Below are positions 366 to 11,966 of a stretch of DNA of 14,900 nt, one piece after another. The position numbers were made by a program, and so were the translations under genes. Under the pieces are notes generated by a model. The model had not been told where the DNA came from, did no database searches, and saw nothing but the letters and a program-made list of their open reading frames with translations. The DNA is from a virus: UHGV virus genome UHGV-0189183, one strand, 5' to 3'. How positions within the stretch are numbered: position 1 is the stretch's first letter; each line of letters begins with the position of its first letter.

Positions 366-387
366 TGGTGTCCCTGCAGGAATCGAA
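366..387. repeat. Distal attachment-site core: displaced copy of the tRNA-Arg 3' end (TGGTGTCCCTGCAGGAATCGAA)
   Basis: Near-identical to 11892-11914 (one C fewer in the C-run). Its reverse complement ends GGGACACCA, i.e. an acceptor-stem 3' side plus CCA. Confidence 0.8.
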
Positions 388-438
388 AATGTATTTATAT
401 CTATGTTTTATAAAGGTAATTTAAGTGGTTGTTTTGTT

Positions 439-460
439 GATACCATCATGGATACCATCA
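439..460 (+). repeat. Two tandem GATACCATCA copies (putative integrase arm-type sites, left end)
   Basis: GATACCATCA at 439-448 and 451-460. The same motif recurs next to the integrase gene at 11729-11779. Confidence 0.5.
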
Positions 461-912
461 AACGATAAAAACATCTCATTAAGGCCATAGAGATCGGCCT
501 ATTCCGTCAGTTTCAATAATGAATAGTTGGATGAAAAAACGACGGGGCAGGGGGCTGGCAAATCTGCGAAAAGGTTGAAAAATGCGCAAAAAAGTTATCA
601 CACCCCACGCATTATACAATGCTGCTCGCAAACCAGCGCCAACTCTGGGAAGTCAGGGGGATACACCCTAAAGTATTTTTTTCATTTTATGTATACCAGA
701 ATGGCTTTAAATCACTCACCATCCAGCGCTATAACCGGGTTTAACCGTGTATACCATCCCCCATGTGATATGACGTATTCTCATTCATAAAACCCTTTAT
801 TGTATCGAATTTGACACAATACCCGCCCGCAGTAATCAGACCGTCAAGCAAATATCGTTGTACTGTTCACGACACACCTGATCACTCAAGAATTGTTCAC
901 AGCGAGAAAAAT

Positions 913-1938
913 ATGGATAACCCGGACAAAACTCCCGTACCTGAGGTCACTGTAGCAACAGAACCGCAGCCCTCTGCAGAATGCTTCACCTTTGGCGATC
1001 CCATTCCGGTACTGGACCGGCGCGAGCTGCTTGATTATGTGGAGTGCGTACAGATTGATCGCTGGTATGAACCGCCGGTCAGTTTTGCCGGGCTGGCACG
1101 TACCTACCGCGCTGCCGTGCATCACAGTTCACCAATTGCTGTTAAGCGTGACATTCTCAGCAGCACCTTCATCCCACACCGCTTGCTCAGCCAGCAGTCT
1201 TTCGCCCGTTTCGTTCAGGATTATCTGGTGTTTGGTAATGCTTATCTGGAAAAGCGCACCAACTGGCTGGGTGGTGTCCTCTCACTGGAGCCAGCGCTGG
1301 CAAAGTATACCCGGCGCGGCGTTGACCTAGAATCCTACTGGTTTGTGAACTACGGCCTGACGATGCAGCCTTATGAGTTCACCAGAGGCAACATTTTTCA
1401 TCTGATGGAGCCGGATATTAACCAAGAGATTTACGGGCTGCCCGGTTATCTCTCCGCCATTCCGTCAACCCTGCTCAACGAGTCCGCAACGCTGTTCCGT
1501 CGGAAATATTACATCAACGGCAGCCATGTAGGCTTCATCATGTACATGACCGACGCTGCGCAGAATCAGGAGGATGTGAACAACATCCGCAAGGCAATGA
1601 AAAGTGCCAAAGGACCGGGCAATTTTCGCAATCTCTTTATGTACTCACCCAATGGCAAAAAAGATGGCATCCAGATCATCCCCCTATCCGAAGTTGCGGC
1701 GAAAGATGAGTTTCTGAACATCAAGAACGTGAGCCGTGATGACATGATGGCAGCGCACCGCGTGCCACCGCAGATGATGGGAATCATGCCGAGTAACGTT
1801 GGGGGGTTTGGAGATGTAGAAAAAGCCAGCCGTGTTTTTGTTCGCAACGAACTGATGCCGCTACAGAAGCGACTGCAGGAACTGAACGACTGGTGTGGCG
1901 AGAAAATAATTAGTTTTGAACCTTATACACTTGAGTAA
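913..1938 (+). CDS. Cargo protein resembling a P2-family (gpQ / PBSX-type) portal protein; an in-frame TTG at 811 is an alternative start
   Basis: Long ORF of normal GC content. Conserved-looking blocks (FGDPIPVLDRRELLDY, WYEPPVSF, LVFGNAYLEK, NESATLFRRKYY) match what I recall of P2-type portal proteins. Size about 341 aa from the ATG at 913. Family assignment is from memory and not verified. Confidence 0.45.
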   Translation: MDNPDKTPVPEVTVATEPQPSAECFTFGDPIPVLDRRELLDYVECVQIDRWYEPPVSFAGLARTYRAAVHHSSPIAVKRDILSSTFIPHRLLSQQSFARFVQDYLVFGNAYLEKRTNWLGGVLSLEPALAKYTRRGVDLESYWFVNYGLTMQPYEFTRGNIFHLMEPDINQEIYGLPGYLSAIPSTLLNESATLFRRKYYINGSHVGFIMYMTDAAQNQEDVNNIRKAMKSAKGPGNFRNLFMYSPNGKKDGIQIIPLSEVAAKDEFLNIKNVSRDDMMAAHRVPPQMMGIMPSNVGGFGDVEKASRVFVRNELMPLQKRLQELNDWCGEKIISFEPYTLE

Positions 1939-1966
1939 TAAAAAAGCCACTGAAGTGGCTTTTTTA
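1939..1966. terminator. Bidirectional rho-independent terminator shared by the convergent portal-like and DUF4062 genes
   Basis: A-run, stem GCCAC (1946-1950), loop TGAA, stem GTGGC (1955-1959), T-run 1960-1965. Confidence 0.6.
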
Positions 1967-1967
1967 T

Positions 1968-2933
1968 TTAATCGGGAAGGTTACGTAAATCGATATATGA
2001 GAAAAATGCGGCACCTTTCTCAGTTAACTCGTATCGAAGATATCGATTTTCCATTATTGGCGTTGTTTTGAGTAGGCCATGGACCATCATTAACGTGCAA
2101 ACATTTCTAACCAAAAAACCAGCTAAGTCAGTCGAATTTGATCTTAACCCAGAAAGAATAGTTCCTCTATACAGCAAAATGAGTCGCATTGCTGTTGTTT
2201 TAACTGGCTCTGGAGTTTCGGATAATTTTGTCGGGATCGTTAACTGTGTATTTTCAAATAGCTTATATATTTTACTGAACTCTTCCTCAGATGGTTTTTT
2301 TACTATAGCTTTACTTTCAGGGGAACGTGCAGCTCTGAGAAGTTCAACCTCAGATTTTAAAGCTTCATTTTCCTTCGTTAGTTTAGATATTTGTTCTATT
2401 AACACACTTGACTCTGATATTTCCTTTCCAGAAACCCACCCAAGGAGATTTCTCTCGACACCAATTTGAGGAAGTGTCTTATAAATTGATATTTGTATAT
2501 CTTTAATATCCCGAAAAAATTCCACCGGATACCCCTTGACCTTTTGTTTGAAAGCTTCATATTTTGTCGGGTTATCTAATTCAAGAACTTCCTTACCAAC
2601 TGTTTTAACTTTTTCATCTAGATATTCGTCATCAATGACTATCGAAAATAGAGGTTTGTTTGTACTTAAAGCATAATCATATTCGAGCTCTGTATAGCAA
2701 TAATCACTGCCGGGAGCAATCGTTCCATAACGCCCTCCCAGAATAAGGATGTAGATATCTGACTCATCTATCCAGCGCTTAATAATTTCTAACTGGCTTC
2801 TGTCTCCAGGCTTAAATAGCTCCATTCCCGCAGGTATATGCCCGGCAGTTAATATGGCACTTACCGCAGCTTGCCTTTCTTCAATGAGGTCTGTAAAAGT
2901 TGATGAAATGAAAACTTGAAATTTCCTATTCAT
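1968..2933 (-). CDS. DUF4062-type N-terminal domain protein with coiled-coil and uncharacterised C-terminal domain (hotspot cargo)
   Basis: 321-aa ORF. N-terminus MNRKFQVFISSTFTDLIEERQAAV carries the FISSTFxDLxxER signature I associate with Pfam DUF4062. Gene is markedly AT-rich relative to the element backbone. Confidence 0.65.
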   Translation of the reverse strand: MNRKFQVFISSTFTDLIEERQAAVSAILTAGHIPAGMELFKPGDRSQLEIIKRWIDESDIYILILGGRYGTIAPGSDYCYTELEYDYALSTNKPLFSIVIDDEYLDEKVKTVGKEVLELDNPTKYEAFKQKVKGYPVEFFRDIKDIQISIYKTLPQIGVERNLLGWVSGKEISESSVLIEQISKLTKENEALKSEVELLRAARSPESKAIVKKPSEEEFSKIYKLFENTQLTIPTKLSETPEPVKTTAMRLILLYRGTILSGLRSNSTDLAGFLVRNVCTLMMVHGLLKTTPIMENRYLRYELTEKGAAFFSYIDLRNLPD

Positions 2934-3331
2934 TTTTTATCCATATAGAGTTATTGTCATCTAACATACCTACAAAATGCTATAGGTAAATTTAAGTTGG
3001 TATTATTAGTCTTTTACTAGTATCTAATGCTGAAAAAGTTGATGAAAGAAAGACATTAGACGCAGATACCAACATCAGAGCATAATCATATGATATAGGT
3101 TAAAGCGTGTTCAAGACCGATTAACGTAAGTTCCCTAGATCTCCCCTCAGCGCGAGCAGCCCCGCCCGCCTGCCCGCTTCGCTTAACAGAATGGTTTTCA
3201 TGCACCCCGTAAATCGCCTCAGGAGCCGCCACACAAGGGCTTTCACGTCAAAAATGATGCATGAGACTCATGCGTTTTCATGCGCCATAGACATGCACTC
3301 ATGCGCTCTCAGGCCAGCCAGGAAAAAGGCG

Positions 3332-3360
3332 TAAAAAATCCCGGTGCCGGGCCGGGATTA
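3332..3360 (-). terminator. Rho-independent terminator ending the Sid/Psu-Ogr operon
   Basis: On the minus strand: stem AATCCCGG, loop, stem CCGGGATT, followed directly by a T-run; about 20 nt past the Ogr-like stop. Confidence 0.55.
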
Positions 3361-3379
3361 GGTAGGCGTTTTTTGCTAA

Positions 3380-3652
3380 TCAGACAGGGATTTGCTGGCG
3401 GCTTGATAACTTTGATGCAGAGCCATAGCGATTGAGCGTTTGCTGTTGTTTTTCCGGCATTTGTGCTTTGTCTGATTCCTGTTCATTGCGCCGGGGCTTC
3501 ATAATTATCTTATCCACACTTTCCAGAGCGGTAAATGTGCAGGAACATTCAAGATTCTGGCACTGATACCATGAGCGTTTAACCGACGGTGCTTCATAGG
3601 CGGTGGTTCTGGCGTGTGCAACGGTGCCGCATTCAGGACATTTCAGCGCCAT
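3380..3652 (-). CDS. Ogr/Delta-family zinc-finger late-gene transcriptional activator
   Basis: 90 aa. C-x2-C-x22-C-x4-C arrangement (CPECGTVAHART...YQCQNLEC) closely matches the P2 Ogr / P4 Delta pattern. Confidence 0.85.
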   Translation of the reverse strand: MALKCPECGTVAHARTTAYEAPSVKRSWYQCQNLECSCTFTALESVDKIIMKPRRNEQESDKAQMPEKQQQTLNRYGSASKLSSRQQIPV

Positions 3653-4413
3653 CAGATACCCTCCATATCACGGTTACGTTTCTGCAGCTCTTCACGTTCC
3701 TGACGGATCTTCATTTTGTGAAGGGCCGCCGGTGACGGGATTTTGCTTAAATCGACACGAGCCGCATAATCCGGCGCAACGCCCGCCAGTTTAAACACAG
3801 GGTCCAGTTCCGGCATCGCAGTGTTAGCAAGAGCCGGTTTGGTGATATGTTTGTGAATAAAGTCTTTCAGCAGTGTGTCCGGGTCATTAACTGAATTCAC
3901 CACCCCCACAACGGCACTGGCTTCCCGCCCCATTGTGGTTTTGAGCAGGCTCAGTGTCTGGATTAACGCCTTACCATGCGCCTGCATGAAGTCTTCCCAG
4001 ATTTGCTTTGCGCGAATTTCCACAAGGGTGTTATGTGCGCTGATATACTGCCCGGCTAATTTCCCGGCTTCCTGCGGTAATAAGGCATTTTCGCTTTCCT
4101 GAGCTGCCAGCAGTTCATCAAAATCCTCAAGCGTTTCTCGTCCCAGCGCAATTTCCGTGCGCAGTTTTTTCATTTCCTTTGAGACTACGCCCTGACTTTC
4201 ACGAAACAGCGTGCGCCACTCCTCATTCAGCGCGTTCGTCGTGGCTTCCATTTCAGCCCGGCGCTGGCGGATTGTCGCAATATTATCCGCTGCCGCTTTC
4301 TGCCGACGACGTGCTTCAAGCCATGCGCTTCTGGCCGTGTTCAGGGTTTCCATTGCCTGCTGCGTTACAGCCGGAAAAGTGGAAAGGTTGTTATTCTCTG
4401 CGGTGTTGTTCAT
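3652..4413 (-). CDS. Sid/Psu-family protein (P4 capsid-size determination / polarity suppression family)
   Basis: 253 aa, strong AGGAG ribosome-binding site before the ATG at 4413. Immediately upstream of the Ogr/Delta-like gene, as sid is in P4. Helical, charge-rich sequence resembling my recollection of P4 Psu/Sid. Which paralogue it is cannot be resolved. Confidence 0.6.
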   Translation of the reverse strand: MNNTAENNNLSTFPAVTQQAMETLNTARSAWLEARRRQKAAADNIATIRQRRAEMEATTNALNEEWRTLFRESQGVVSKEMKKLRTEIALGRETLEDFDELLAAQESENALLPQEAGKLAGQYISAHNTLVEIRAKQIWEDFMQAHGKALIQTLSLLKTTMGREASAVVGVVNSVNDPDTLLKDFIHKHITKPALANTAMPELDPVFKLAGVAPDYAARVDLSKIPSPAALHKMKIRQEREELQKRNRDMEGI

Positions 4414-4447: not shown

Positions 4448-4465
4448 TGTGTCGTGACTGACACA
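4448..4465. promoter_or_regulatory. Dyad TGTGTC-N6-GACACA (TGT-N12-ACA type) upstream of the Sid/Psu-like gene
   Basis: Perfect 6-bp inverted arms. The TGT-N12-ACA layout is that of Ogr/Delta activator sites in P2/P4 late promoters. Confidence 0.4.
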
Positions 4466-4588
4466 AGCGCACTATCGGCGCTCAGTGTGTGGTGGCTGGC
4501 ACAACGGGCGTTTGCGGTTATTCAGACGCGGCCATGACAGCCAGCCAGATAAAAATGCCTCTGTTTCAGCCTGCTTTATGTCCCGGAT

Positions 4589-4787
4589 GCGGTGAAACAG
4601 GTGGAACAGGTGTTACAGCATTGTTTTGTAAAACATTTATATGCACATCACAGGTGAAACATCGCAGGTAACAAGGTGGAACAGCGGATCGGCTGGCGTT
4701 CCACCTGTTCCACCTCACTATTTCAGAAGGTGAAACAGGTTTAGCCCTTGTAAAATACGGGTGTTCCACCTGTTTCACCTGTTACCC
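4589..4787. repeat. Iteron cluster (putative origin / alpha-protein binding sites, P4 ori/crr-like)
   Basis: At least seven copies of GGTG(A/G)AACAG in both orientations, e.g. 4591-4612, 4651-4660, 4675-4684, 4699-4716, 4729-4740, 4763-4782. Reverse complement TGTT(C/T)CACC resembles the P4 octamer TGTTCACC. Confidence 0.65.
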
Positions 4788-4813: not shown

Positions 4814-7486
4814 TTAACCCGGCACCTCGCTGTTGAAGACATAGAGTCTGCGGGGATTCATCTCTGGCGGGCGAATGGTTGTCTGCAGCTTGCCATCGGT
4901 GGAGGGCAGCAGGTATCCACGATCCGCGCACAGACGCGCCACCTTGCGCGGGTCAAATCCCCGGCAGATTTCTTTCCAGCCGGACGGCATGACGTAGAAC
5001 GTGGTGACGGCCTCCGTGCCCTGCGCGGTACTGCCTTTCTCCACCCTGCGCCAGCCCACCATATTGCCGGGGCGGTTACGCTCGTCGTGCCAGTCAGCAA
5101 AGCGGCTGTACTGATTCGCGGTAAAGAAGCTGCGTACCTGCTCCAGTGCGGCAATATCTTCCTGATTGGCGGTGTGCCCGCGATCTTTCAGCCATGCGTT
5201 CAGGCAGACGCGGGTTGCCCGCAGCGCTTCACCCTCAGGCCAGCCGGTAATACCCAGCCGGGTTGCCAGCTCGCCCGCCATCGCCACCAGTGCAAAGCGG
5301 TTCACAGCCCGGCCTACCTGATTACCCGCATCTTTCGGGGTCAGGGCGGCTGTATATTCCTTCATCAGTGACTTTGCCTGTGCCGTCAGCCCGTTAAGGT
5401 CAGCGGTCAGGGCTTTCAGCCACTCCCTGAACGGCGAACCGTAGTAGCTGGACGTGGCCCACTCCAGATGTTCCGCCAGAGCCTTGCCGCTGTCGAAGCC
5501 GTGCAGCTCCTCAAATACGCCAAATTTCCCGGAATCGCTGGGGATCTGGATCATCCTGACTTCCATCCCGGCAAAGGTACGCTCACCGGCTTTTGCCGCA
5601 TGTTCGGTCAGTGACAGCTCGCCGGTTGAAAAGAACAGCAGCCGCCACTGCTTACGGGTGCGCAGCTCACCGTCCGTACCGGCACGGCCCTTGCCCTGAC
5701 CGTTTGCCAGCATGTAGGCGATATTACCCGCCTCGCGTCCGTCCACCTCCCGGATCTCATCAAGCATCATGGCGGCATCGTTGCGGCGGCTGGCGCATCC
5801 CTCCAGCGCGTTGCCGGTTGCCCGCCACGTCTGCCAGTAATCAGGCCCGCCACAAACGGAGGTTGCCGCTTTCATGGTGGTGGTCTTACCGTCAGTCGAT
5901 TCCCCCTTGAGGTGGTAGCCGCCGCCGTCCATCCCAACCAGCCGTAACAGGGGTGCAGCAAAGGCCAGACTGACGGCAAACGCCACGCGGGAGTTACCGG
6001 TGCAGTAACGGGAAACGTGCTCCCGCCATTCCTCCGTTGTACCTGACACACGGAAATCGCGCCCCTGCACGGAAGTGGTCTGGAGAATGACACCCTCTGC
6101 ACCTTCACCGCTGACCTCATCCTGCAGGACGTAAACCTGACCATGCCAGCCAGTGCGGCTGACGCAGGTCACGCGGCGTTCCGGTTTACACAGCGAGATA
6201 TATTCCATCAGGCGGGCGCGGGCCTCACCGGTGGTGCTGATATAGGACAGCCCGTTAACCAGCAGTACCCGGCGTAGTTCCTCACCGCTACCACTGAGCA
6301 TTTCCATCGGCATCGCCCAGCGGCGGCGCTCTCCCCATGTATCTTCCCACTCCAGCAGTCGCCCGAAATTACCGCCATCAGCATCGCAGGTGATTGCCGT
6401 CACGCGCAACGGGTTGCATATTTTGACGTTCTGGATCTCCGTCTCACCGTTGCGCTGTACCTGTTTTTCATACCAGAGATATTCCTGGGTAAGACGGAAC
6501 CCGTGCGGCAACTGCGTGCGGCCTTCTCCGCACAGTACAAGACCGTTACGAAAGGCTTCACGGGCACGTGTAATACCGTGCTCACGGTGGAAGTCATTCC
6601 AGTCAGCTTTAATTTCTCCCGGTGGCAGCGTCACCCAGCCACCGACTGATTTTGCCGCCCGTTCAGCAAAGGATCTGCCGGGATTCTCGCCCCCGTCCTG
6701 AAAATCGTTATCACCGGCGATGATAATTTTTACCTCAGGCCAGCGTGCCCGCAGCGCCTGTGCGACGTTGGGCAGGTTGCCCGCCGATATGGCCGCCACT
6801 ACGCATCCGGCGGTGAGCTGGCTTACCGTCAACGCCGTGGCGTAACCTTCGGTAATCACCACCTGTACCGGCGGTTCAGACGGTAACGGGCTGAGCGCCA
6901 CAAACGCGCCTTTCATCGTGCTGCCGGGCAGTATGCTTTTTTCACCCGTCGGGGCGATAAGCTGTGCACCGGTCACGGCTCCGGCGTTTGTCGTGAGCGG
7001 TAACAGCAGGGAACCGGCAGGGAAATCCTTACCACTGATATGCTGCACGCTCCCGGTCAGGGAGGCCGGGTATCCGGCGAACCCTTTTCCGGTCAGATAG
7101 GGGCTTTCTCCCGTGTGACTCTCTTTCATCAGGGCCGCCACGGTAAGGCTCATATCGCGTTTAGGGGCTTTTTGCCTGGCGGGCTTAACGGGCAGTTCCT
7201 GCACATCCGGCACATTAAGCACCTGCGCCACCTCCTGCGCTGCCTTTCTGATGCCGTAACCGGTTATGAGCTTAACCAGATCCAGACCATCACCATTGCC
7301 GCACTGGCTGCAAATCCACGTCCCGCGCCCGTCGAGGTCATCGAGGCGGAAGCGATCCTTGCCCCCACATTTCGGGCAGGGACCGTGCCTGCCGTTTTCA
7401 GGTACATCAATACGCAGCATCTGCAGAATGACGGGCCATTTTCCCCGCGCTGCGGCTGAAATCTGCGTAACCGTCTGTGTTGTCAT
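4814..7486 (-). CDS. P4 alpha-type primase/helicase replication protein
   Basis: 890-aa ORF. N-terminal zinc-binding motif CPKCGG...CSQCG. Large size and position in the replication operon next to the iterons match P4-family alpha proteins. Confidence 0.85.
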   Translation of the reverse strand: MTTQTVTQISAAARGKWPVILQMLRIDVPENGRHGPCPKCGGKDRFRLDDLDGRGTWICSQCGNGDGLDLVKLITGYGIRKAAQEVAQVLNVPDVQELPVKPARQKAPKRDMSLTVAALMKESHTGESPYLTGKGFAGYPASLTGSVQHISGKDFPAGSLLLPLTTNAGAVTGAQLIAPTGEKSILPGSTMKGAFVALSPLPSEPPVQVVITEGYATALTVSQLTAGCVVAAISAGNLPNVAQALRARWPEVKIIIAGDNDFQDGGENPGRSFAERAAKSVGGWVTLPPGEIKADWNDFHREHGITRAREAFRNGLVLCGEGRTQLPHGFRLTQEYLWYEKQVQRNGETEIQNVKICNPLRVTAITCDADGGNFGRLLEWEDTWGERRRWAMPMEMLSGSGEELRRVLLVNGLSYISTTGEARARLMEYISLCKPERRVTCVSRTGWHGQVYVLQDEVSGEGAEGVILQTTSVQGRDFRVSGTTEEWREHVSRYCTGNSRVAFAVSLAFAAPLLRLVGMDGGGYHLKGESTDGKTTTMKAATSVCGGPDYWQTWRATGNALEGCASRRNDAAMMLDEIREVDGREAGNIAYMLANGQGKGRAGTDGELRTRKQWRLLFFSTGELSLTEHAAKAGERTFAGMEVRMIQIPSDSGKFGVFEELHGFDSGKALAEHLEWATSSYYGSPFREWLKALTADLNGLTAQAKSLMKEYTAALTPKDAGNQVGRAVNRFALVAMAGELATRLGITGWPEGEALRATRVCLNAWLKDRGHTANQEDIAALEQVRSFFTANQYSRFADWHDERNRPGNMVGWRRVEKGSTAQGTEAVTTFYVMPSGWKEICRGFDPRKVARLCADRGYLLPSTDGKLQTTIRPPEMNPRRLYVFNSEVPG

Positions 7487-7866
7487 ATTTCCCCCTGATA
7501 CAGCGATACACCCGAGCTGCAGAAGTCATCAAATGCCGCCGGAAGTGTGCGGTACAGCTCCGCCATCACTTCACAGCCGCGCACAGTCAGTACCGGTGGC
7601 GCGGTCAGCAATGATGGCTCCAGCATGTCAGTCAGCAGCGCCAGTGCAGCCGCTGCTCCCTGTGCTTCGCCATATTCGTTAATCAGTGCGCACTCGATAT
7701 GCAGGGCAATGGCCATTTCAATACGTTCAACCGTCAGGCTGTGCGGACCATAGTGATCGCAGCCGGTTTCGGTCAGCGCTTTCTGGCGCCAGGCCGATGC
7801 AATAGCCCGCCGGTAAAGCGCAGTGGTCATTTCTGCCGGAAAAATAGAAACCTGCGGCTGGTTCAT
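7483..7866 (-). CDS. Hypothetical protein, replication-operon member
   Basis: 127-aa ORF. Stop overlaps the alpha start and its start overlaps the upstream gene stop (translational coupling). Confidence 0.5.
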   Translation of the reverse strand: MNQPQVSIFPAEMTTALYRRAIASAWRQKALTETGCDHYGPHSLTVERIEMAIALHIECALINEYGEAQGAAAALALLTDMLEPSLLTAPPVLTVRGCEVMAELYRTLPAAFDDFCSSGVSLYQGEI

Positions 7867-8147
7867 TGGGTGCCTCCTTCAATCAGTTCGCAACTGTGCG
7901 CAATATCCGTCAAATCTGCCCGCAGGTACTCCATCAGCGCGGCGATGCCTGGCGCACATCCTGCATCCAGCGTTCCGCCCTGCGAGGGGTATTCAGAAAA
8001 GAGAAGCTGCAACATGTCGCAGGCCTTTCTGGCGCGGTCCAGCTTTCCGAAACCGTCCTCTGACAACCCATACGCAAAAGCACCGCTATTGTGTTTTTCA
8101 GGCAAAGCGTGGCCCTGAGCACCGTTGTGCCCGTTTGAAATATTCAT
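7863..8147 (-). CDS. Hypothetical protein, replication-operon member
   Basis: 94-aa ORF, co-oriented and overlapping the next gene by 4 nt. Confidence 0.45.
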   Translation of the reverse strand: MNISNGHNGAQGHALPEKHNSGAFAYGLSEDGFGKLDRARKACDMLQLLFSEYPSQGGTLDAGCAPGIAALMEYLRADLTDIAHSCELIEGGTQ

Positions 8148-8178
8148 CGTGGATTACTCCGTTTTCAGCGGTGTTTTG

Positions 8179-8538
8179 TCAGAGAAACTTTGAATAGTGA
8201 CTGTCGTCAGGTTCAGCAGAACGCCGTATGCTGCGCTCCCGCCAGCGGGTAAATACCACCGACGGATGCAGCGTCAGCGAGCCAGAGCCGCTACCCCCCG
8301 CGGGAGCTAGCGAAGGTTTAAAGAGCGGGGCATTAAACAGGCGCGTATACCGCTGCTCAAACCATGCCAGAGGGCAGGAAGAAAGCTTATTGTCGCTGTC
8401 ATGACGAATCAGCACTTCACAGCTGAATTCAGGGTTAACCAGCGCCACGGAGGGCGAGGCTTCAGTTAATCTGATAATCGTGACAGTCCAGCCACGCTCA
8501 TGCTGCCAGCGTTCGCCGGGTTGCGGATAATTACGCAT
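8179..8538 (-). CDS. Hypothetical protein (start moved to the ATG at 8538)
   Basis: GGAGGTGA ribosome-binding site 5 nt before the ATG at 8538. Overlaps the upstream gene stop by 8 nt. Confidence 0.5.
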   Translation of the reverse strand: MRNYPQPGERWQHERGWTVTIIRLTEASPSVALVNPEFSCEVLIRHDSDNKLSSCPLAWFEQRYTRLFNAPLFKPSLAPAGGSGSGSLTLHPSVVFTRWRERSIRRSAEPDDSHYSKFL

Positions 8539-8707
8539 GTTCACCTCCACAGGGAATGCGACCGGCAAAGCTCAGCACATAGTCCGGGGCAAGTCTGCGC
8601 CGCGCTGAGCGCTCGTTATCTGCGGTGATCCTTAACATCACAGGACGGGCATTGCGTTGACTGCGGTTGATCGCCGCAAATAACCAGGTACACTTCTGTT
8701 TAGCCAT
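8531..8707 (-). CDS. Small P4-family protein, first gene of the leftward operon (possibly Icd-like; uncertain)
   Basis: GAGGT ribosome-binding site before the ATG at 8707 (MAKQKCTWLFAAINRSQ...). About 58 aa. The longer ORF-track start at 8761 has no ribosome-binding site. Confidence 0.4.
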   Translation of the reverse strand: MAKQKCTWLFAAINRSQRNARPVMLRITADNERSARRRLAPDYVLSFAGRIPCGGEHA

Positions 8708-8836: not shown

Positions 8837-8838
8837 AC

Positions 8839-9018
8839 GTGTCAACACACAAGAACGAAAGACGTGGTAATCCACCATTCCAGTTCAGACTTGACCCTGA
8901 ATTGCGTGAGTTAATGGAAGAAGCACAGCAGCAGGATGGTGATGAATCACTGGCTGCTTGGATCAAACGCATTATCCGCAAAGAGCTACAAAGTCGTGGT
9001 TCCGAACCAAAGAACTGA
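8839..9018 (+). CDS. Ribbon-helix-helix (Arc/MetJ-type) small DNA-binding protein, GTG start; not in the supplied ORF track
   Basis: 59-codon ORF, GTG at 8839 preceded by AGGTG at 8826-8830, stop TGA at 9016-9018. The N-terminal segment PPFQFRLDPELRELMEEAQQQ is typical of an RHH beta-strand and first helix. Confidence 0.5.
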   Translation: MSTHKNERRGNPPFQFRLDPELRELMEEAQQQDGDESLAAWIKRIIRKELQSRGSEPKN

Positions 9019-9026
9019 TAAATACA

Positions 9027-9056
9027 TGGGGAAGATTTTCTTCTTTCCCATTTTTC
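9027..9056 (+). terminator. Weak terminator-like hairpin plus T-run after the RHH gene
   Basis: GGGAAGA / TCTTTCCC imperfect stem with one bulge, followed by TTTTT at 9051-9055. Confidence 0.3.
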
Positions 9057-9069
9057 TAAGGTCGTCATA

Positions 9070-9279
9070 TTATTTATCAGCATCTGAGGATTGAGCTTTT
9101 ACCCACTGTCTAATTTCTTGTGCATCGTAAACAGTTACCCGTTTTGAAATACGTGTGGATTTTGGAAATTCAGGATTGTTTTTTTCCCAGCGCCAGAGAG
9201 TAACTGTGCTTACTTGCAAAAAGTCAGCAGTAGCCCGTGGGCGGGCATGCCCGGTGATAGGGTAAGTTTTTAATGTCAT
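9070..9279 (-). CDS. alpA: AlpA-family transcriptional regulator / excisionase-like protein
   Basis: 69 aa. The segment FLQVSTVTLWRWEKNNPEFPKSTRISKRVTVYDAQEIRQWV matches the AlpA (MerR-like helix-turn-helix) family pattern. Confidence 0.75.
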   Translation of the reverse strand: MTLKTYPITGHARPRATADFLQVSTVTLWRWEKNNPEFPKSTRISKRVTVYDAQEIRQWVKAQSSDADK

Positions 9280-9287
9280 GAAATTAC

Positions 9288-9315
9288 CTGCCGTGTTATG
9301 TAATGAACACGGCAG
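9288..9315. promoter_or_regulatory. Perfect 10-bp inverted repeat CTGCCGTGTT-N8-AACACGGCAG directly upstream of alpA
   Basis: The loop contains TGTAATG. On the minus strand the 3' arm includes the probable alpA ribosome-binding site (AGGT). No flanking T-run, so more likely an operator or translational-control hairpin than a terminator. Confidence 0.45.
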
Positions 9316-9386
9316 ATGATGGCAAGGTTAGGGCTAAATTATCAGTGCCACTATTTTGTTTTTATGATGGTATAAAATATTACCAC

Positions 9387-10439
9387 TTAAAATCTTCCTG
9401 CTTTAGATGAGCTAAGACATTCTTTTATCTTATCTTTTCCAAGTTCAACCTTTGTTTTTGGATTGTTTCTTTCTGCCACGATTTTATCTGCCCACGCGTC
9501 AATAGTCAGTTTTCCTCGTTTTCCATTGCAAGATGCTGGGTCATTTAGTAACCAATAAATAGCTGCTTTGTACACTGCCTCTCTTTTTGTTGCTGATGCT
9601 TCAACATTACCATGCACTCTTCGGATGCTTTCGATGCTGGATACACCACCATTCACATAGCTGGGTAGCTCTTTGCCAACACCGTTATCTAATTTTTCTA
9701 TTTGGTATCTTGTTAAATAGATATCATCCAGTGTTATATTTCCAATAATATTTTTATTAGATGGAGATACTAATCCCTCTATTGATGATAAGCCTTCGAA
9801 AGGGGACATTGCTAATATTACCCACTCATCACTGCCAAATGCAGCATTAGTGAATGGCATATTAGCTTCTTTAAAAGAAATATCATGTGCTAATAGCCTT
9901 GCTTTACCATATACCTTTAGTTCTTTGTATAATGAAGATGTTGGGCTGATGACACATATAGACCACAATCCAGAAAGTAAGATTAATGGGCTTTTTATAT
10001 TTGGTTTGTTTTCTAAATGGTATATTTGTTTTGGAGGTGAAAATGGCTTATCTTCTGTATAATCAATATCGAATTTTGCTTTTGGTATGAAATGGCTTAA
10101 TGCAGATTTATTACTATAGTTTAATACTCTGGGTGGGTACATGTTTTCCCAATCTTTAAAATCTCCACCTTTACGCATCATCATTAGCGCAGCTTCGAAA
10201 CCATTTAATTCTAAGCAAAATTCGATAATTCCAATTTGAGCAAAATGGATAAGGTCATCAATTTGGCAATTAAGTAGTTCAGCAGCTCGTTTTAGGGAGC
10301 AAAATTCCATTACAGGAATACTATTCCTTTCCCAAACATTTAATCGTGTATTATCGCTCATCACGTCACCTGTATGCACATATGGTAAAATGGGGCGAAT
10401 AGCAGACTTTACTACTATTAGCCATTTTCTTATTTTCAA
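9387..10439 (-). CDS. Hypothetical AT-rich cargo protein between integrase and alpA (alternative start at 10361 with AGGTGA ribosome-binding site)
   Basis: 350-aa ORF whose first codon overlaps the integrase stop. Conspicuously AT-rich. No family recognised by eye. Confidence 0.6.
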   Translation of the reverse strand: MKIRKWLIVVKSAIRPILPYVHTGDVMSDNTRLNVWERNSIPVMEFCSLKRAAELLNCQIDDLIHFAQIGIIEFCLELNGFEAALMMMRKGGDFKDWENMYPPRVLNYSNKSALSHFIPKAKFDIDYTEDKPFSPPKQIYHLENKPNIKSPLILLSGLWSICVISPTSSLYKELKVYGKARLLAHDISFKEANMPFTNAAFGSDEWVILAMSPFEGLSSIEGLVSPSNKNIIGNITLDDIYLTRYQIEKLDNGVGKELPSYVNGGVSSIESIRRVHGNVEASATKREAVYKAAIYWLLNDPASCNGKRGKLTIDAWADKIVAERNNPKTKVELGKDKIKECLSSSKAGRF

Positions 10440-11707
10440 ACAACGCGTAGTTTTTTCATTTTATAGGGGGCAATATATCTATCAGTGTTAGCTTCAATAT
10501 AATTAGACCACCATTGCATCATCCGACGACGTTCATGCATATGCTGAGCTAAGTGTACATAAGCGGCTCGCACTTCATTTCGTTCTTGATGGCTCATTTG
10601 CCGTTCTACTGCATCCCTCGACCATAAGCCTGATTCTGTCAGGGCTGAGCACGCCATTGCCCTAAATCCATGAAGGCAAATGTCCACCTGCGTGTCGTAC
10701 CCCATAATTCTTAATGACTTATTAACTGTGTTCTCACTCATTGGTTTGTAAGGGTTACTATCTCCGGGGAAAATAAGTTCATACTCACCACTTATTTTTT
10801 TAATAGCTTCGAGAACATCAATAGCTTCATTAGATAATGGAACATAATGAATACTGCCCATTTTTGCCCCACGCTCTGAATATTTTACCCCATCAATTCT
10901 TTTTCTTTGAGCAGGAATAGTCCACATTGCATTTTCAAAATTAATTTCCTCCCATCTTGCGTGTCTCAGTTCACTGGAGCGAACAAAAGTATGAAGAGAA
11001 AATAATACTGCCAGCTTAGTTAACGGCCTCCCTGTATAGCTATCAATTTTTGATATTAATTCGGGTAATCGTTCTAACGGAAGTGCAGGGCGATGCTTTA
11101 TTTTGGGGCTGGAAATTGCTCCTCTTAGATCATGGGTAGGATTGTATTCAACAATTCCACGCTGAATAGCGTACCGGAAAACGCTTGCAAGAGTAGTTTT
11201 CACTCTTCCTGTTGTTGCTCCAATTCCCTGATCACTCATCCTCACCAATAATGGCAACAGGTCACTTGTTTTTAATGAGTCGATGGGTTTATTTCCGATA
11301 TATGGGAAAATATGATTTTCCATTTCTCTTAAAATTTTAGTGCGGGTAATCTCTTTCCATGAGGGATGGCCTATAGAGCCTTTATGCCACTCTAAAGCGA
11401 TTGTCTGGAATGTAGCAGAGGCGGGTTCTGTTGGCGCTGCTTTTTTAGATACTCTGGGATCAACACCGTCGGCTAAAAGTTGCCTTGCTTCATCTCTACG
11501 CTTACGGGCAAGTGCCAGCGAAACGTCTGGGAAAACGCCCAAAGCCAGCGTAGCTTGTTTGCCGTTAAATCTGTAGTTCATTCGCCATGCCTTGGTCCCG
11601 TTCTTTTTAACTAAAAGATACAGGCTTCCCCCATCCGTCAGTTTGTAGTCTGTTTCTTTGGGTTTAGCGTTTTCAACTTTCTTGGGTGATAGCTCATTTA
11701 GTGCCAT
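10436..11707 (-). CDS. int: P4-type tyrosine integrase (site-specific recombinase)
   Basis: 423 aa. N-terminal arm-binding-type region (YKLTDGGSLYLLVKKNGTKAWRMNYRFNGK) and C-terminal catalytic region (HGFRAMACS...VERQMSH...RAAYVH with the tyrosine). Immediately adjacent to the tRNA gene. Confidence 0.95.
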   Translation of the reverse strand: MALNELSPKKVENAKPKETDYKLTDGGSLYLLVKKNGTKAWRMNYRFNGKQATLALGVFPDVSLALARKRRDEARQLLADGVDPRVSKKAAPTEPASATFQTIALEWHKGSIGHPSWKEITRTKILREMENHIFPYIGNKPIDSLKTSDLLPLLVRMSDQGIGATTGRVKTTLASVFRYAIQRGIVEYNPTHDLRGAISSPKIKHRPALPLERLPELISKIDSYTGRPLTKLAVLFSLHTFVRSSELRHARWEEINFENAMWTIPAQRKRIDGVKYSERGAKMGSIHYVPLSNEAIDVLEAIKKISGEYELIFPGDSNPYKPMSENTVNKSLRIMGYDTQVDICLHGFRAMACSALTESGLWSRDAVERQMSHQERNEVRAAYVHLAQHMHERRRMMQWWSNYIEANTDRYIAPYKMKKLRVV

Positions 11708-11728
11708 GGAGAGTAATCTTTGTTGTCA

Positions 11729-11779
11729 GTTGATGGTATCGGTTTATCGAACCGTGAGTACCATCAACGATACCATCAG
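11729..11779. repeat. Putative integrase arm-type sites between int and the tRNA
   Basis: TGATGGTATC (11731-11740, inverted), TACCATCAAC (11759-11768) and GATACCATCAG (11769-11779); same motif as 439-460. Confidence 0.5.
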
Positions 11780-11891
11780 AATCATGTAATGTCATGAAAT
11801 CAACTGAAACCATGTTCAAGGCGACAGGCCCTGATTTTGCTGGTTTTAAGGGGGGAGGTGAAGTGTGTTGAAACGTGATGAAATGAAAAGG

Positions 11892-11966
11892 TATTGTCCC
11901 CTGCAGGAATCGAACCTGCAATTAGCCCTTAGGAGGGGCTCGTTATATCCATTTAACTAAGAGGAC
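11892..11966 (-). tRNA. argW: tRNA-Arg, anticodon CCU (argW-type); the three nucleotides after the discriminator read ATA, not CCA
   Basis: The reverse complement, read from 11966 (5' end) to 11892 (3' end), gives GTCCTCTTAGTTAAATGGATATAACGAGCCCCTCCTAAGGGCTAATTGCAGGTTCGATTCCTGCAGGGGAC-A-ATA. It folds as a cloverleaf with a CCU anticodon and a TTCGATT T-loop. Confidence 0.85.

What the first reader, a model, noticed from the sequence alone, without database searches (positions are those of the whole stretch)
366..11914. A P4-like satellite occupies the argW site that holds the CPS-53/KplE1 prophage in E. coli K-12
The flanks (LysR regulator on one side; tRNA-Arg(CCU), yfdC-like and mlaA on the other) match the K-12 argW neighbourhood. 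The insert here is an entirely different, satellite-type element, with mosaic composition: a GC-rich replication backbone and AT-rich cargo at both ends. This illustrates argW as a reusable integration hotspot and gives a clean natural example of a satellite with two cargo slots.
Basis: partly seen in the sequence, partly recalled or inferred. Interest (0 to 1): 0.4.

Follow-up and report, generated by a model that had tools for sequence, protein, structure and literature searches.

The report
Satellite at argW carrying helper portal

Summary
Window 369-11914 is one precisely bounded 11,527-bp element between dsdC and argW/yfdC/mlaA. Deleting it in silico gives a sequence 100% identical to natural empty sites.

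The element is a P4-like satellite in the broad sense. It has a P4-type integrase, AlpA, an alpha-type primase with iterons, Sid, Delta and a P2-type cos. It lacks Psu and a detectable epsilon, and its gene order is permuted relative to P4.

argW is a reused site: 912 of 5,426 complete E. coli genomes are empty, 1,899 carry the KplE1/CPS-53 integrase junction and 46 carry this satellite's integrase junction. One strain carries both elements in tandem.

"Two cargo slots" is half right. The cos-proximal slot is a true hotspot. The int-alpA slot holds a diverged positional homologue.

It is 88-91% identical in protein to helper portals and shows dN/dS of 0.04-0.10. It has its own conserved pair of Ogr/Delta boxes. 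Next to it lies a TIR-like DUF4062 gene. The order cos-cargo-portal matches that of P2-like prophages, which carry homologous cargo. This looks like helper-to-satellite capture and was not described in the literature I could search. Portal function is inferred, not shown.

The parts
1..270 (+). Chromosomal flank: 3' end of dsdC (LysR-type regulator)
   Evidence: Pfam LysR_substrate. Annotated DsdC in UTME-8. Same neighbour as in K-12.
369..387 (-). Distal att copy. This is the displaced argW 3' fragment (TTCGATTCCTGCAGGGACA, followed by the native CCA at 366-368). It corresponds to K-12 pawZ.
   Evidence: The flank after it is identical to the K-12 sequence after pawZ. It has 3 G where the tRNA copy has 4.
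388..758 (.). att-proximal arm of the element, conserved among argW satellites. It contains two direct Int arm-type repeats, ATACCATCA at 440-448 and 452-460.
   Evidence: RTACCATCA occurs 6 times against 0.23 expected, and five of the six copies lie next to the two att ends. The arm is 96% identical in the portal-less relative AH21.
801..876 (+). Putative Delta/Ogr-dependent late promoter of the portal gene. It has two TGT-N12-ACA boxes (801-818 and 859-876), and the second lies 36 nt before the ATG.
   Evidence: four of the six boxes in the window lie upstream of sid or the portal gene; both boxes are conserved in 4 diverged satellites, and conservation begins exactly at box 1; the geometry is compared with P4 Psid. 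Function is inferred.
913..1938 (+). Full-length P2-family portal protein gene (gpQ type, 341 aa)
   Evidence: phrog_68 E 6e-169 over the full length. TIGR01540 scores 337 bits against a cut-off of 166. PF04860. 88-91% amino-acid identity to portals of P2-like prophages. The satellite portals form a monophyletic clade. dN/dS is 0.04-0.10.
1937..1968 (.). Bidirectional intrinsic terminator between the convergent portal and DUF4062 genes
   Evidence: Hairpin of -16 kcal/mol, z -6.2. A homologous hairpin lies at the same place in the P2-like prophage L020.
1968..2933 (-). DUF4062 protein (321 aa): an N-terminal TIR-like domain, a coiled coil and a C-terminal winged-helix-like domain. It is a candidate single-gene anti-phage effector.
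   Evidence: PF13271 E 3e-28. AF2 model pLDDT 82.6. All top Foldseek PDB hits are TIR domains. Homologues abut gpQ in the gpA-gpQ hotspot of P2-like prophages. There is no PADLOC hit, so a defence role is inferred.
3145..3379 (-). cos region. The core is aagcgggca|GGCGGGCGGGGCTGCTCGC at 3152-3170, with GCATG-rich conserved sequence on the delta side. It marks the boundary between backbone and hotspot.
   Evidence: Alignment with P4 cos and with the cos of P2-like prophages. Backbone homology in relatives starts at 3140-3157. Cleavage has not been tested.
3380..3652 (-). Delta (Ogr/Delta zinc-finger late activator, single-domain, 90 aa)
   Evidence: PF04606 E 1e-16. 43% identical to P4 Delta.
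3652..4413 (-). Sid-like external scaffold (capsid size determination), 253 aa. No psu gene follows it.
   Evidence: phrog_6165 E 8e-94 over the full length. 25% identical to P4 Sid, E 8e-13. The Psu of relatives gives no tblastn hit in the window.
4448..4503 (-). Psid-type late promoter. Two TGT-N12-ACA boxes lie 38 bp apart, and the proximal box is 34 nt from the sid ATG.
   Evidence: The spacing (38 bp and 34 nt) is identical to that of P4 Psid, read from the P4 sequence.
4590..4785 (.). Iteron cluster (GTTCCACC / GTTTCACC, both orientations) immediately downstream of alpha. It is the equivalent of P4 crr/ori.
   Evidence: 5 exact GTTCCACC copies against 0.35 expected, plus GTTTCACC variants. 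P4 crr with TGTTCACC repeats sits at the same place.
4814..7486 (-). alpha-type replication protein (890 aa): zinc ribbon, Toprim primase and DUF927 helicase-like domain
   Evidence: Pfam. phrog_1139 E 8e-185. The N-terminal 316 aa are 37% identical to P4 alpha, E 4e-47.
7483..7866 (-). DUF5375 protein, homologue of P4 orf106
   Evidence: PF17345. 43% identical to P4 orf106.
7863..8538 (-). Two small conserved genes of unknown function (7863-8147 and 8179-8538), at the position of P4 epsilon/orf151
   Evidence: phrog_14861 and phrog_30862, both of unknown function. No similarity to P4 epsilon.
8531..8707 (-). Icd-like cell-division inhibitor ORF (immunity region equivalent)
   Evidence: NF033153, 84 bits. 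54% identical to the C-terminal part of the P4 'cI ORF'.
8839..9018 (+). Small divergent YlcI/YnfO / Arc-like ORF
   Evidence: Weak matches only: phrog_228 E 5e-6 and NF041551 E 5e-4.
9070..9279 (-). AlpA-family regulator/excisionase
   Evidence: PF05930, 29.3 bits against a cut-off of 21.
9387..10361 (-). AT-rich orphan gene between int and alpA (324 aa) with an N-terminal HTH.
   Evidence: No Pfam, PADLOC or NCBIfam family. Only 15 homologues in 5.8 billion proteins. 25% identical to the gene at the same position in the argW relative L007. AF2 pLDDT 66.5 and no fold match.
10436..11707 (-). P4-type tyrosine integrase (423 aa)
   Evidence: Arm-DNA-bind_3, Phage_int_M and Phage_integrase domains. 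50% identical to P4 Int and 32% to K-12 IntS.
11731..11778 (.). Int arm-type repeats (RTACCATCA): one inverted copy and two direct copies
11895..11914 (-). tRNA-proximal att copy, forming the rebuilt 3' end of argW (…TTCGATTCCTGCAGGGGACA, then element sequence ATACC)
11894..11967 (-). argW, tRNA-Arg(CCU)
   Evidence: ARAGORN. Rfam tRNA, 63 bits.
12042..14879 (.). Chromosomal flank: yfdC (12042-12974, -), mlaA (13268-14023, +) and part of yfdF (14205-14879, -)

Best explanation
Window 369-11914 is an apparently intact, recently mobile P4-like phage satellite of 11,527 bp. It belongs to a divergent, Psu-less sub-lineage with a permuted gene order.

Integration. Its P4-type integrase inserted it into the 3' end of argW, using a core of TTCGATTCCTGCAGGG(G)ACA and RTACCATCA arm sites. 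This is the same tRNA end used by KplE1/CPS-53.

Inferred life cycle, by analogy with P4.
- AlpA and Int excise the element.
- The alpha primase/helicase replicates it from the iterons just downstream of alpha.
- Delta switches on helper late genes and the element's own two-box late promoters.
- Sid builds small capsids from helper gpN.
- The helper terminase cuts the P2-type cos at about 3152-3170.

The cos-proximal hotspot (about 759-3145) was not assembled from anonymous cargo. It is a block, cos - TIR-like DUF4062 gene - terminator - portal gene, that is colinear and homologous with the cos-cargo-gpQ end of P2-like helper phages. It was therefore captured from a helper, most simply by recombination or end-joining at the shared cos followed by deletion of the rest of the phage.

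The portal gene has since been kept under purifying selection in a satellite-specific clade. It acquired a Delta/Ogr-type late promoter. My best guess is that it is expressed late and assembles into hijacked procapsids. One possible benefit is extra portal supply, since T=4 shells need about 1.8 times more portal per capsid protein than T=7 shells. Its 3' end together with cos also provides the two homology arms across which cargo cassettes are swapped.

DUF4062 is most likely an abortive-infection-type defence gene that benefits the lysogen.

Shown: boundaries, homologies, colinearity, selection and the conserved boxes. Inferred: all activities.
For: Precise insertion: in-silico deletion reproduces natural empty sites at 100% identity over 404 nt. 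att repeats and arm sites are present.

Mobility: the same element at 99.1-99.9% identity is found in 7 genomes from pig, human, chicken and mink hosts and from isolates of unrecorded host. They occupy two junction contexts, including one in tandem with a KplE1-like prophage.

Satellite hallmarks.
- Sid: phrog_6165 E 8e-94.
- Delta: PF04606.
- AlpA.
- alpha: the N-terminal part is 37% identical to P4 alpha.
- orf106 and icd homologues.
- Int: 50% identical to P4 Int.
- Iterons: 5 against 0.35 expected.
- A Psid with the same 38-bp and 34-nt geometry as P4.
- A cos core aligned with those of P4 and P2-like phages, with family conservation ending about 25 nt past it.

Helper origin of the left arm.
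- Window 973-2944 aligns as one 2,001-nt segment, 77% identical, to the P2-like prophage L020, across gpQ, the terminator and DUF4062. L020's cos lies 93 nt beyond.
- A second P2-like prophage has the same arrangement.
- The 558-aa cargo of a sister satellite has a 55% homologue abutting gpQ in a P2-like genome.

Portal maintained.
- It is full length.
- It is 88-91% identical to phage portals.
- Seven satellite portals from E. coli (argW and leuX), Pantoea, Pseudocitrobacter and IMG/VR form one clade.
- dN/dS is 0.04-0.10 at dS 0.23-0.49.
- Only 12 residues are clade-specific.

Promoter: both boxes are conserved, and homology among argW and leuX satellites starts exactly at box 1.

Cargo swapping: the breakpoint lies inside the portal 3' end.

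DUF4062: TIR-like fold.
Against: - No experiment. Excision, packaging, portal expression and defence are all inferred.
- Psu and epsilon are missing, so helper derepression and capsid stabilisation may differ from P4 or be impaired.
- The cos core differs from the P2/P4 19-mer by more than 3 mismatches. Its cognate helper is not identified.
- The portal is dispensable for the lineage: the close relative AH21 has the same backbone without it. Only about 13 of 5,426 E. coli genomes carry it.
- Purifying selection could partly have acted in phages, if the alleles were re-imported by recombination.
- Helper and satellite copies of the block are only 77% identical, so the transfer is not recent and its direction is inferred from context.
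- TGT-N12-ACA is a loose motif: 6 observed against 3.3 expected in the window.
- DUF4062 has no hit in PADLOC.
Confidence: 0.6

Rival explanations
1. The element is an ordinary P4-like satellite. The portal gene is a functionless passenger, a fossil of an accidental cos-mediated recombination with a helper that has not yet decayed.
For: The portal is absent from the near-identical backbone in AH21 and is rare, found in about 13 of 5,426 genomes. One copy is truncated by IS3. The mature protein is almost indistinguishable from phage portals, so it need not have any satellite-specific role.
Against: Satellite alleles have diverged to dS 0.23-0.49 while keeping dN/dS at 0.04-0.10 and intact reading frames, in elements at two tRNA sites and in three genera. 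A conserved upstream block with two Ogr/Delta boxes begins exactly where inter-element homology begins. No other phage remnant, such as gpP, survives.
Confidence: 0.2
2. The portal gene is retained mainly as a recombination arm. Together with cos it reproduces both flanks of the helper's Q-cos hotspot, which lets this lineage trade defence cassettes with helper phages by homologous recombination. Any contribution to capsids would be secondary.
For: Cargo-linked breakpoints lie within the last ~100 nt of the portal gene. Two of the three cargo families found next to satellite portals have homologues abutting gpQ in P2-like phages. A fragment of the third lies in a rearranged P2-like prophage. 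The literature reports that P2 and P4 otherwise almost never share defence genes and cites lack of homology as one reason (PMC13586616).
Against: Shared cargo is 55-79% identical, not near-identical, so no recent exchange has been caught. A 1-kb arm would not need an intact ORF, a promoter or dN/dS near 0.07. Second-order selection for evolvability is weak.
Confidence: 0.25
3. The satellite portal is an interference or decoy factor. It would co-assemble with, or titrate partners of, the portal of the helper or of competing P2-like phages, to bias packaging toward the satellite or to block rival phages.
For: Satellites commonly interfere with helper assembly. Assembly-interference defences are known, for example Tai in PMC11364771 (listed). 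The gene sits in a defence hotspot.
Against: Only 12 residues are clade-specific, 5 of them in the N-terminal 25 aa, and the rest are conservative. Nothing suggests a poisoned or truncated portal. Selection resembles that on bona fide portals.
Confidence: 0.1
4. The element is a cryptic, no longer mobilisable island: a satellite that lost Psu and epsilon and now only serves the host as a carrier of defence genes.
For: No psu or epsilon was detected. The cos core deviates from the P2/P4 19-mer. No helper is identified within the window.
Against: All backbone ORFs are intact. Copies at 99.1-99.9% identity lie in unrelated strains and in two junction contexts. Psu-less P4-like sub-families are common and are considered functional (PMC10085698). 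UTME-8 has a second portal-matching locus, possibly a helper.
Confidence: 0.12
5. It is not a P4-like satellite at all. It would instead be a PICI/cf-PICI or the remnant of a P2-like prophage integrated at argW.
For: It carries int, alpA and a primase like enterobacterial PICIs, and one phage structural gene.
Against: Sid, Delta, a P4-type Psid, a P2-type cos and P4 alpha/orf106/icd homologues are present. Only one of the capsid-module genes that define cf-PICI is present. There is no gpP, gpO, gpN or tail gene. Both att copies enclose the portal.
Confidence: 0.03

Closest known systems
Satellite phage P4 (NC_001609)
   Same: - Integration into a tRNA 3' end by a P4-type Int (50% identical).
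- alpha primase N-terminal domain (37% identical), with an iteron region directly downstream.
- orf106/DUF5375 and icd homologues.
- Sid (25% identical) and Delta (43% identical).
- A two-box Psid with identical spacing (38 bp and 34 nt).
- A P2-type cos next to a variable hotspot.
- Size: 11.5 kb here, 11.6 kb for P4.
   Different: - No psu, epsilon or gop/beta/cII.
- Delta has a single domain (90 aa against 166 aa).
- The C-terminal half of alpha is DUF927.
- The sid-delta-cos-hotspot block lies downstream of alpha and next to the distal att, instead of between int and alpA.
- It carries a portal gene.
Psu-less P4-like variants catalogued by SatelliteFinder (Type B#var06 / Type C; Moura de Sousa et al. 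2023, PMC10085698)
   Same: Satellites with int, alpA, alpha, sid and delta but lacking Psu. They form sub-families and are regarded as probably functional.
   Different: That work reports a conserved psu-delta-sid/alpA/epsilon/alpha order and mentions no virion structural gene in P4-like elements. Here the order is permuted and a portal is present. I did not run SatelliteFinder itself.
cos-proximal defence hotspot of P2-like phages between gpA and gpQ (Rousset et al. 2022, PMC9122126)
   Same: The local anatomy is the same: cos, then a cargo gene convergent with and abutting the portal gene, with a shared terminator. DUF4062 and the 558-aa cargo family occur at this position in P2-like prophages.
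   Different: Here the block lies inside a satellite that has no terminase, capsid, scaffold or tail genes. The portal has its own two-box late promoter instead of being co-transcribed after gpP.
Capsid-forming PICIs (cf-PICI)
   Same: They are phage satellites that encode their own portal.
   Different: cf-PICIs encode a whole capsid and packaging module (capsid, protease, portal, head-tail connectors, terminase) and belong to the PICI lineage. This element has only the portal and relies on Sid-type redirection.
KplE1 / CPS-53 prophage of E. coli K-12
   Same: It uses the 3' end of argW. The cores overlap (CTGCAGGGGACA is shared), and both leave a displaced tRNA fragment next to dsdC.
   Different: There is no nucleotide similarity, and Int is 32% identical to IntS. 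KplE1 keeps the encoded CCA of argW and this satellite does not. The two can sit in tandem.

Membership tests
P4-like satellites (SatelliteFinder core set, PMC10085698) | Tyrosine integrase | tested here: met
   Arm-DNA-bind_3, Phage_int_M and Phage_integrase domains. 50% identical to P4 Int over the full length.
P4-like satellites (SatelliteFinder core set, PMC10085698) | Sid (capsid size determination) | tested here: met
   phrog_6165 E 8e-94 over positions 3-241 of 242. BLASTP to P4 Sid gives 25% identity over 246 aa, E 8e-13.
P4-like satellites (SatelliteFinder core set, PMC10085698) | Delta (Ogr/Delta activator) | tested here: met
   PF04606, 60.9 bits against a cut-off of 26.3. 43% identical to P4 Delta.
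P4-like satellites (SatelliteFinder core set, PMC10085698) | Psu | tested here: not met
   The sid stop overlaps the delta start at 3652. The Psu of the relative L007 gives no tblastn hit in the window. Relatives L006, L007 and L025 do have sid-psu-delta.
P4-like satellites (SatelliteFinder core set, PMC10085698) | AlpA-type regulator | tested here: met
   PF05930, 29.3 bits against a cut-off of 21.
P4-like satellites (SatelliteFinder core set, PMC10085698) | Epsilon (Ash) helper derepressor | tested here: not met
   No BLASTP hit to P4 epsilon. The two small ORFs at the equivalent position have no Pfam or NCBIfam family. A non-homologous analogue cannot be excluded.
P4-like satellites (SatelliteFinder core set, PMC10085698) | alpha primase/helicase | tested here: met
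   Zn_Ribbon_Prim, Toprim_3 and DUF927. The N-terminal 316 aa are 37% identical to P4 alpha, E 4e-47. The C-terminal half is not alignable to P4 alpha.
P4-like satellites (SatelliteFinder core set, PMC10085698) | Canonical order int-hotspot-psu-delta-sid-alpA-epsilon-alpha | tested here: not met
   The order here is int-X-alpA-...-alpha-sid-delta-cos-hotspot (compared with P4).
P4-like satellites (SatelliteFinder core set, PMC10085698) | P2-type cos packaged by a P2-like helper | tested here: inconclusive
   A cos-like core and flanks align with P4 and with P2-like prophages. The P2/P4 19-mer is not matched within 3 mismatches. Cleavage and packaging cannot be tested with these tools.
Capsid-forming PICI | Own capsid module (major capsid, protease, portal, head-tail connectors, terminase) | tested here: not met
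   Only the portal is present. There is no gpP remnant.
P2-like (Peduoviridae) prophage or remnant | gpP, gpO, gpN, gpM and tail genes next to gpQ, with its own int/C/cox/A | tested here: not met
   tblastn with gpP gives no hit. The ORF inventory contains no such genes. The portal lies inside the satellite's att-bounded 11.5 kb.
KplE1/CPS-53-type prophage | IntS/TorI recombination module and KplE1 gene content | tested here: not met
   Int is 32% identical to IntS, and blastn finds no similarity to CPS-53.
TIR-domain anti-phage effectors | TIR fold with NADase activity, giving phage resistance | tested here: inconclusive
   The DUF4062 N-terminal domain gives TIR domains as all top PDB fold hits (best E 1e-4, TM 0.6 to target). 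There is no PADLOC family. Activity is not testable here.

The most novel reading that the evidence does not exclude
A sub-lineage of P4-like satellites has domesticated one helper virion gene. The portal would be transcribed from a satellite-type Delta/Ogr late promoter and built into hijacked small capsids, either to relieve a portal shortage or to bias assembly. It would be the first P4-like satellite known to supply part of its own virion, an intermediate between pure capsid pirates and capsid-forming satellites. The same block (cos plus portal 3' end) would act as a two-armed landing pad, giving this lineage access to the helper's defence-gene pool. That would be an exception to the reported lack of P2-P4 exchange.
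Probability: 0.35. Interest if true: 0.7.

Novelty: new variant of a known kind. Interest (0 to 1): 0.45.

Why it matters
Thousands of such elements are catalogued, and argW is a known phage site.

What matters is the helper-derived block. P4-like satellites are the textbook case of elements that carry no virion genes. A recent large survey found it puzzling that P2 helpers and P4 satellites almost never share hotspot genes, even though they replicate together (PMC13586616).

This element and its roughly dozen relatives show a concrete route for such sharing. The shared cos site lets a satellite acquire the helper's cos-proximal segment, including a structural gene. They also show that the captured portal has been kept, promoter and all.

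This gives a testable system for three questions:
- whether satellites tune capsid stoichiometry;
- how defence cassettes move between a parasite and its helper;
- whether standalone DUF4062 (TIR-like) proteins are a new single-gene defence.

Tried and rejected
- The exact P2/P4 cohesive-end 19-mer was not found within 3 mismatches. cos was located only by alignment with relatives and with 186-/E189-type prophages.
- Idea: the portal promoter derives from the helper pP/pO region after deletion of gpP. Local alignments to four helper pP regions were mostly no better than shuffles (737-887 of 2,000 shuffles reached the score for three of them; the L020 region was marginal at 65 of 2,000). I rejected the idea. 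There is also no gpP remnant.
- PADLOC gave no hit for the portal, DUF4062 or the int-alpA orphan. One hit of Sid to JetC is a coiled-coil artefact.
- DUF4062 against the INPHARED phage set gave only weak Acinetobacter hits. The P2-like context was found instead through the large protein collection.
- The int-alpA orphan has no family, only 15 unannotated homologues, a low-confidence model and no fold match. Its function remains unknown beyond a probable N-terminal HTH.
- Rfam found only the tRNA, with no P4 CI/C4-type immunity RNA at gathering threshold.
- I suspected that phage portals with 98-99% query coverage (Tatumella, Rosenbergiella) were satellite-type. They lie in ordinary P2-like prophages and have basic N-termini.
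- The Brevibacillus MAG hit to the promoter 21-mer (L014) shows no other similarity and is a chance or edge match.
- The association between the portal and absence of psu (4 of 13 against 0 of 16 IMG/VR loci) is confounded by shared ancestry, and AH21 breaks it. I do not claim it.

Full report
**1. The observation**

The window is E. coli chromosome and matches strain UTME-8 at 99.9% over all 14,900 bases.

The flanks are as follows.
- 1-270 is the 3' end of dsdC.
- 11894-11967(-) is tRNA-Arg(CCU), which is argW.
- yfdC, mlaA and part of yfdF follow.
- K-12 has the same order, fadL-yfdF-mlaA-yfdC-argW-[CPS-53]-pawZ-dsdC.

The insert is bounded by two copies of the argW 3' end. On the tRNA strand they read TTCGATTCCTGCAGGGGACA at 11895-11914 and TTCGATTCCTGCAGGG-ACA at 369-387. 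The second copy is followed by the native CCA and by the same flank that follows pawZ in K-12.

Joining window 171-371 to 11898-12100 gives a 404-nt sequence that is 100% identical to real genomes such as ATCC 8739.

**2. Occupancy of argW**

Counts are out of 5,426 complete E. coli genomes.

| State of the dsdC-argW site | Genomes |
|---|---|
| Empty junction | 912 |
| K-12-type argW-intS junction | 1,899 |
| This satellite's int-argW junction | 46 |
| Something else, or diverged | remainder |

In EC1515 the same element (99.9% identical) is not next to argW. It sits at the distal att of a KplE1-like prophage, next to torI, where only CTGCAGGGGACA is shared. The two integrases therefore use overlapping cores and can build tandem arrays. 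The element has no nucleotide similarity to CPS-53, and its Int is 32% identical to IntS.

**3. What the element is**

Reading from the tRNA:

| Feature | Coordinates | Note |
|---|---|---|
| int | 10436-11707 | |
| AT-rich orphan | 9387-10361 | |
| alpA | 9070-9279 | |
| Small divergent ORF | 8839-9018 | on the + strand |
| icd-like ORF | 8531-8707 | |
| Two unknown genes | 7863-8147, 8179-8538 | |
| DUF5375 | 7483-7866 | |
| alpha | 4814-7486 | 890 aa, Zn ribbon-Toprim-DUF927 |
| Iteron cluster | 4590-4785 | |
| Two-box promoter | 4448-4503 | |
| sid | 3652-4413 | |
| delta | 3380-3652 | |
| cos region | about 3145-3379 | |
| DUF4062 | 1968-2933 | |
| Terminator | 1937-1968 | |
| Portal | 913-1938 | opposite strand |
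| Two-box promoter | 801-876 | |
| att-proximal arm | 388-758 | |

Identity to P4 proteins:

| Protein | Identity to P4 |
|---|---|
| Int | 50% |
| alpha, N-terminal domain | 37% |
| orf106 | 43% |
| icd region | 54% |
| Sid | 25% (E 8e-13; phrog_6165 E 8e-94) |
| Delta | 43% |

- **Psid geometry.** It copies P4's exactly. Two TGT-N12-ACA boxes lie 38 bp apart, and the proximal box lies 34 nt from the ATG.
- **Iterons.** GTTCCACC/GTTTCACC iterons lie directly downstream of alpha, where P4 has crr with TGTTCACC repeats.
- **Int arm sites.** RTACCATCA repeats cluster at both ends (6 against 0.23 expected).
- **Missing genes.** Psu and epsilon were not found. Close relatives at argW have sid-psu-delta.
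- **Gene order.** It differs from P4, where the hotspot, cos and psu-delta-sid lie between int and alpA.

The element is thus a P4-like satellite in the broad sense: 5 of the 7 SatelliteFinder components and a permuted order. Psu-less sub-families are known (PMC10085698).

**4. cos and the hotspot boundary**

The P2/P4 19-mer is not present within 3 mismatches. However, window 3152-3170(-) reads aagcgggca|GGCGGGCGGGGCTGCTCGC. P4 reads aagcgggcg|GGCGAGGCGGGGAAAGCAC, and E189-/L020-type P2-like prophages read aagcgg(g/a)ca|GGCGTGGCGGGGATACGAGCG.

An alignment of eight family members shows about 215 conserved nucleotides from the delta stop to about 25 nt past the core. After that point the sequences are completely divergent. 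This matches the megablast breakpoints at 3140-3157. The variable slot therefore runs from about 3145 leftward to about 759. The att-proximal arm at 388-758 is again conserved: it is 96% identical in AH21.

**5. The two 'cargo slots'**

*Slot A (cos-proximal).* This is a genuine hotspot. Relatives with the same backbone carry the following there:
- DUF4062 plus portal;
- a 120-aa gene plus portal;
- a 558-aa gene plus portal;
- a 663-aa ATP-binding protein;
- a YecA/SEC-C protein;
- two hypothetical genes;
- a 398-aa hypothetical gene.

*Slot B (int-alpA).* This is different. The 324-aa orphan is 25% identical (E 3e-18) to the protein at that position in the Psu-plus argW relatives. It is essentially the same protein, 99-100% identical, in AH21, PEC1003 and EC1515. 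leuX-type elements have an unrelated 212-aa protein that goes with their own int. It behaves as a fast-evolving part of the int module. I could not assign it a function.

**6. The portal gene**

The gene at 913-1938 encodes a complete P2-family portal.
- phrog_68 gives E 6e-169 over positions 11-339 of 344.
- TIGR01540 gives 337 bits against a cut-off of 166.
- It is 88-91% identical to portals of P2-like prophages such as E189, but only 60% identical to P2 and 186 themselves.
- No terminase remnant lies upstream.

Close copies (about 90% nucleotide identity or more) occur in only about 13 of 5,426 E. coli genomes. I inspected six of these loci, and each lies in a satellite of this type at argW or leuX. 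About 450 genomes have P2-like prophage portals that are at most 86% identical.

The same module occurs in Pantoea stewartii, Pseudocitrobacter vendiensis and IMG/VR contigs. The seven satellite portals form one clade and share a distinct N-terminus, MDNPDK..VPEVTAATEPQSSAEC. Only 12 residues are clade-specific, and 5 of them are in the first 25 aa. From memory, and not tested here, P2 gpQ loses its N-terminal ~26 aa during maturation.

Between satellite alleles, dS is 0.23-0.49 and dN/dS is 0.04-0.10. This is the same as between bona fide phage portals, at 0.085.

Upstream, argW-type and leuX-type satellites are unrelated until exactly the first of two TGT-N12-ACA boxes. From there the sequence is conserved through both boxes to the ATG. 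The proximal box lies 36 nt from the ATG, compared with 34 nt in Psid. The distal box is 20 bp further out than in Psid.

Four of the six TGT-N12-ACA sites in the window lie in these two promoter regions, which together make up about 6% of the sequence.

A strong bidirectional terminator separates the portal gene from DUF4062.

**7. Origin of the block**

DUF4062 homologues at 79% and 61% amino-acid identity lie in genuine P2/186-like prophages (L020, and L021 from Pantoea agglomerans). They sit between gpA and gpQ, convergent with the portal gene and abutting it.

Window 973-2944 aligns to L020 as one 2,001-nt segment at 77% identity. The segment spans the portal, the terminator and DUF4062. 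L020's cos lies 93 nt beyond DUF4062.

In the E189 prophage, cargo likewise sits between gpQ and cos. The 558-aa cargo of sister satellites has a 55% homologue abutting gpQ in a P2-like genome. A fragment of the 120-aa cargo lies in a rearranged P2-like prophage.

Within the satellite lineage, the last ~100 nt of the portal gene co-vary with the cargo. Cassette replacement therefore used a breakpoint inside the portal 3' end, and presumably cos on the other side.

The simplest history has three steps: recombination or cohesive-end joining between a satellite and a P2-like helper at cos; deletion of everything beyond gpQ; and later cassette swaps. Direction is inferred from the fact that a portal is native to phages. 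At 77% identity, the event is not recent.

**8. DUF4062**

The 321-aa protein belongs to a large, well-conserved family of standalone ~320-aa proteins (6,740 hits). The AF2 model has pLDDT 82.6. It shows an N-terminal ~165-aa domain whose top PDB matches are all TIR domains (best E 1e-4), then a coiled coil, then a winged-helix-like C-terminal domain.

It is not in PADLOC, and Rousset et al. do not mention it. Its location in the hotspots of both helper and satellite makes a defence role likely but unproven.

**9. How this compares with what is known**

Rousset et al. (PMC9122126) described cos-adjacent hotspots in P4 (psu-int) and in P2 (gpA-gpQ). They anchored their P4 search on psu, which would miss this lineage.

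Moura de Sousa et al. (PMC10085698) report a conserved order and Psu-less variants but no structural genes.

[quoted passage not shown] It calls the lack of exchange puzzling and lists missing homology as one possible reason.

Full-text searches found no paper describing a portal gene in a P4-like satellite. The library is limited, so this is absence of evidence only.

**10. Verdict**

The added finding is a rare Psu-less P4-like lineage that carries a conserved helper portal gene and helper-type cargo behind cos. This is a new variant of a known kind. It has a plausible but untested functional reading, given in the best explanation and its rivals above. Interest is 0.45.

Noticed in passing
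window 11890-11900 (also L006, L007, L010, L025, L026): After insertion the argW gene no longer encodes its 3' CCA. The tRNA ends ...GGGGACA and is followed by ATACC here (CTTTAA in the Psu-plus relatives), whereas the empty site and the KplE1 lysogen keep ...GGGGACACCA. All argW satellites inspected do this, so tRNA-Arg(CCU) in these lysogens would depend on CCA addition after 3' trimming.
   Followed up: partly
window 372-379 vs 11899-11906: The distal att copy has a run of 3 G/C where the tRNA copy and the empty site have 4. The same 1-nt difference travels with the element in most relatives and in the EC1515 tandem context, but L006 has 4. This suggests that attP carries the 3-G form and that strand exchange occurs 3' of the run.
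   Followed up: partly
L002 (EC1515) 4639-16620: A three-part array at argW: a remnant with a DUF4942 gene beside the csc sucrose genes, then this satellite, then a KplE1-like prophage (torI side), each separated by argW-derived att fragments.
   Followed up: partly
window 9365-9373 (-): A sixth copy of the Int arm-type repeat ATACCATCA lies between alpA and the orphan gene, far from either att end. It could be a regulatory Int site or chance.
   Followed up: no
window 9939-9956: A TGT-N12-ACA box lies inside the AT-rich orphan gene. There is no obvious downstream gene, so it is probably chance (6 sites against 3.3 expected in the window).
   Followed up: no
L012 (E. coli E189 P2-like prophage) 6989-12350: Cargo lies on both sides of cos in this helper-type prophage. 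An AIPR gene sits between gpQ and cos, and SIR2 plus an ATPase sit between cos and DinI/gpA. The P2 'gpA-gpQ hotspot' is therefore really two slots split by cos.
   Followed up: partly
L015 (Pantoea stewartii NZ_CP046558.1) 3776-8000: An integrase only 39% identical to this element's Int lies head-to-head with a 90%-identical copy of the att core, att-proximal arm and portal. This is either a tandem array or an int swap. It shows that the portal module crosses genera.
   Followed up: partly
L026 (E. coli AH21) 998-2989: A near-identical Psu-less backbone at argW carries a 663-aa ATP-binding protein in place of the promoter-portal-DUF4062 block. The portal therefore lies inside the swappable region.
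   Followed up: partly
row H74 (UTME-8): The strain that matches the window has a second locus matching the portal gene, possibly a resident P2-like helper prophage. I could not locate or inspect it.
   Followed up: no
window 14205-14879: The yfdF flank is markedly AT-rich (0.33-0.37 GC) compared with yfdC and mlaA (0.49-0.52). In several strains it is frameshifted or followed by an IS element. This is unrelated to the satellite.
   Followed up: no
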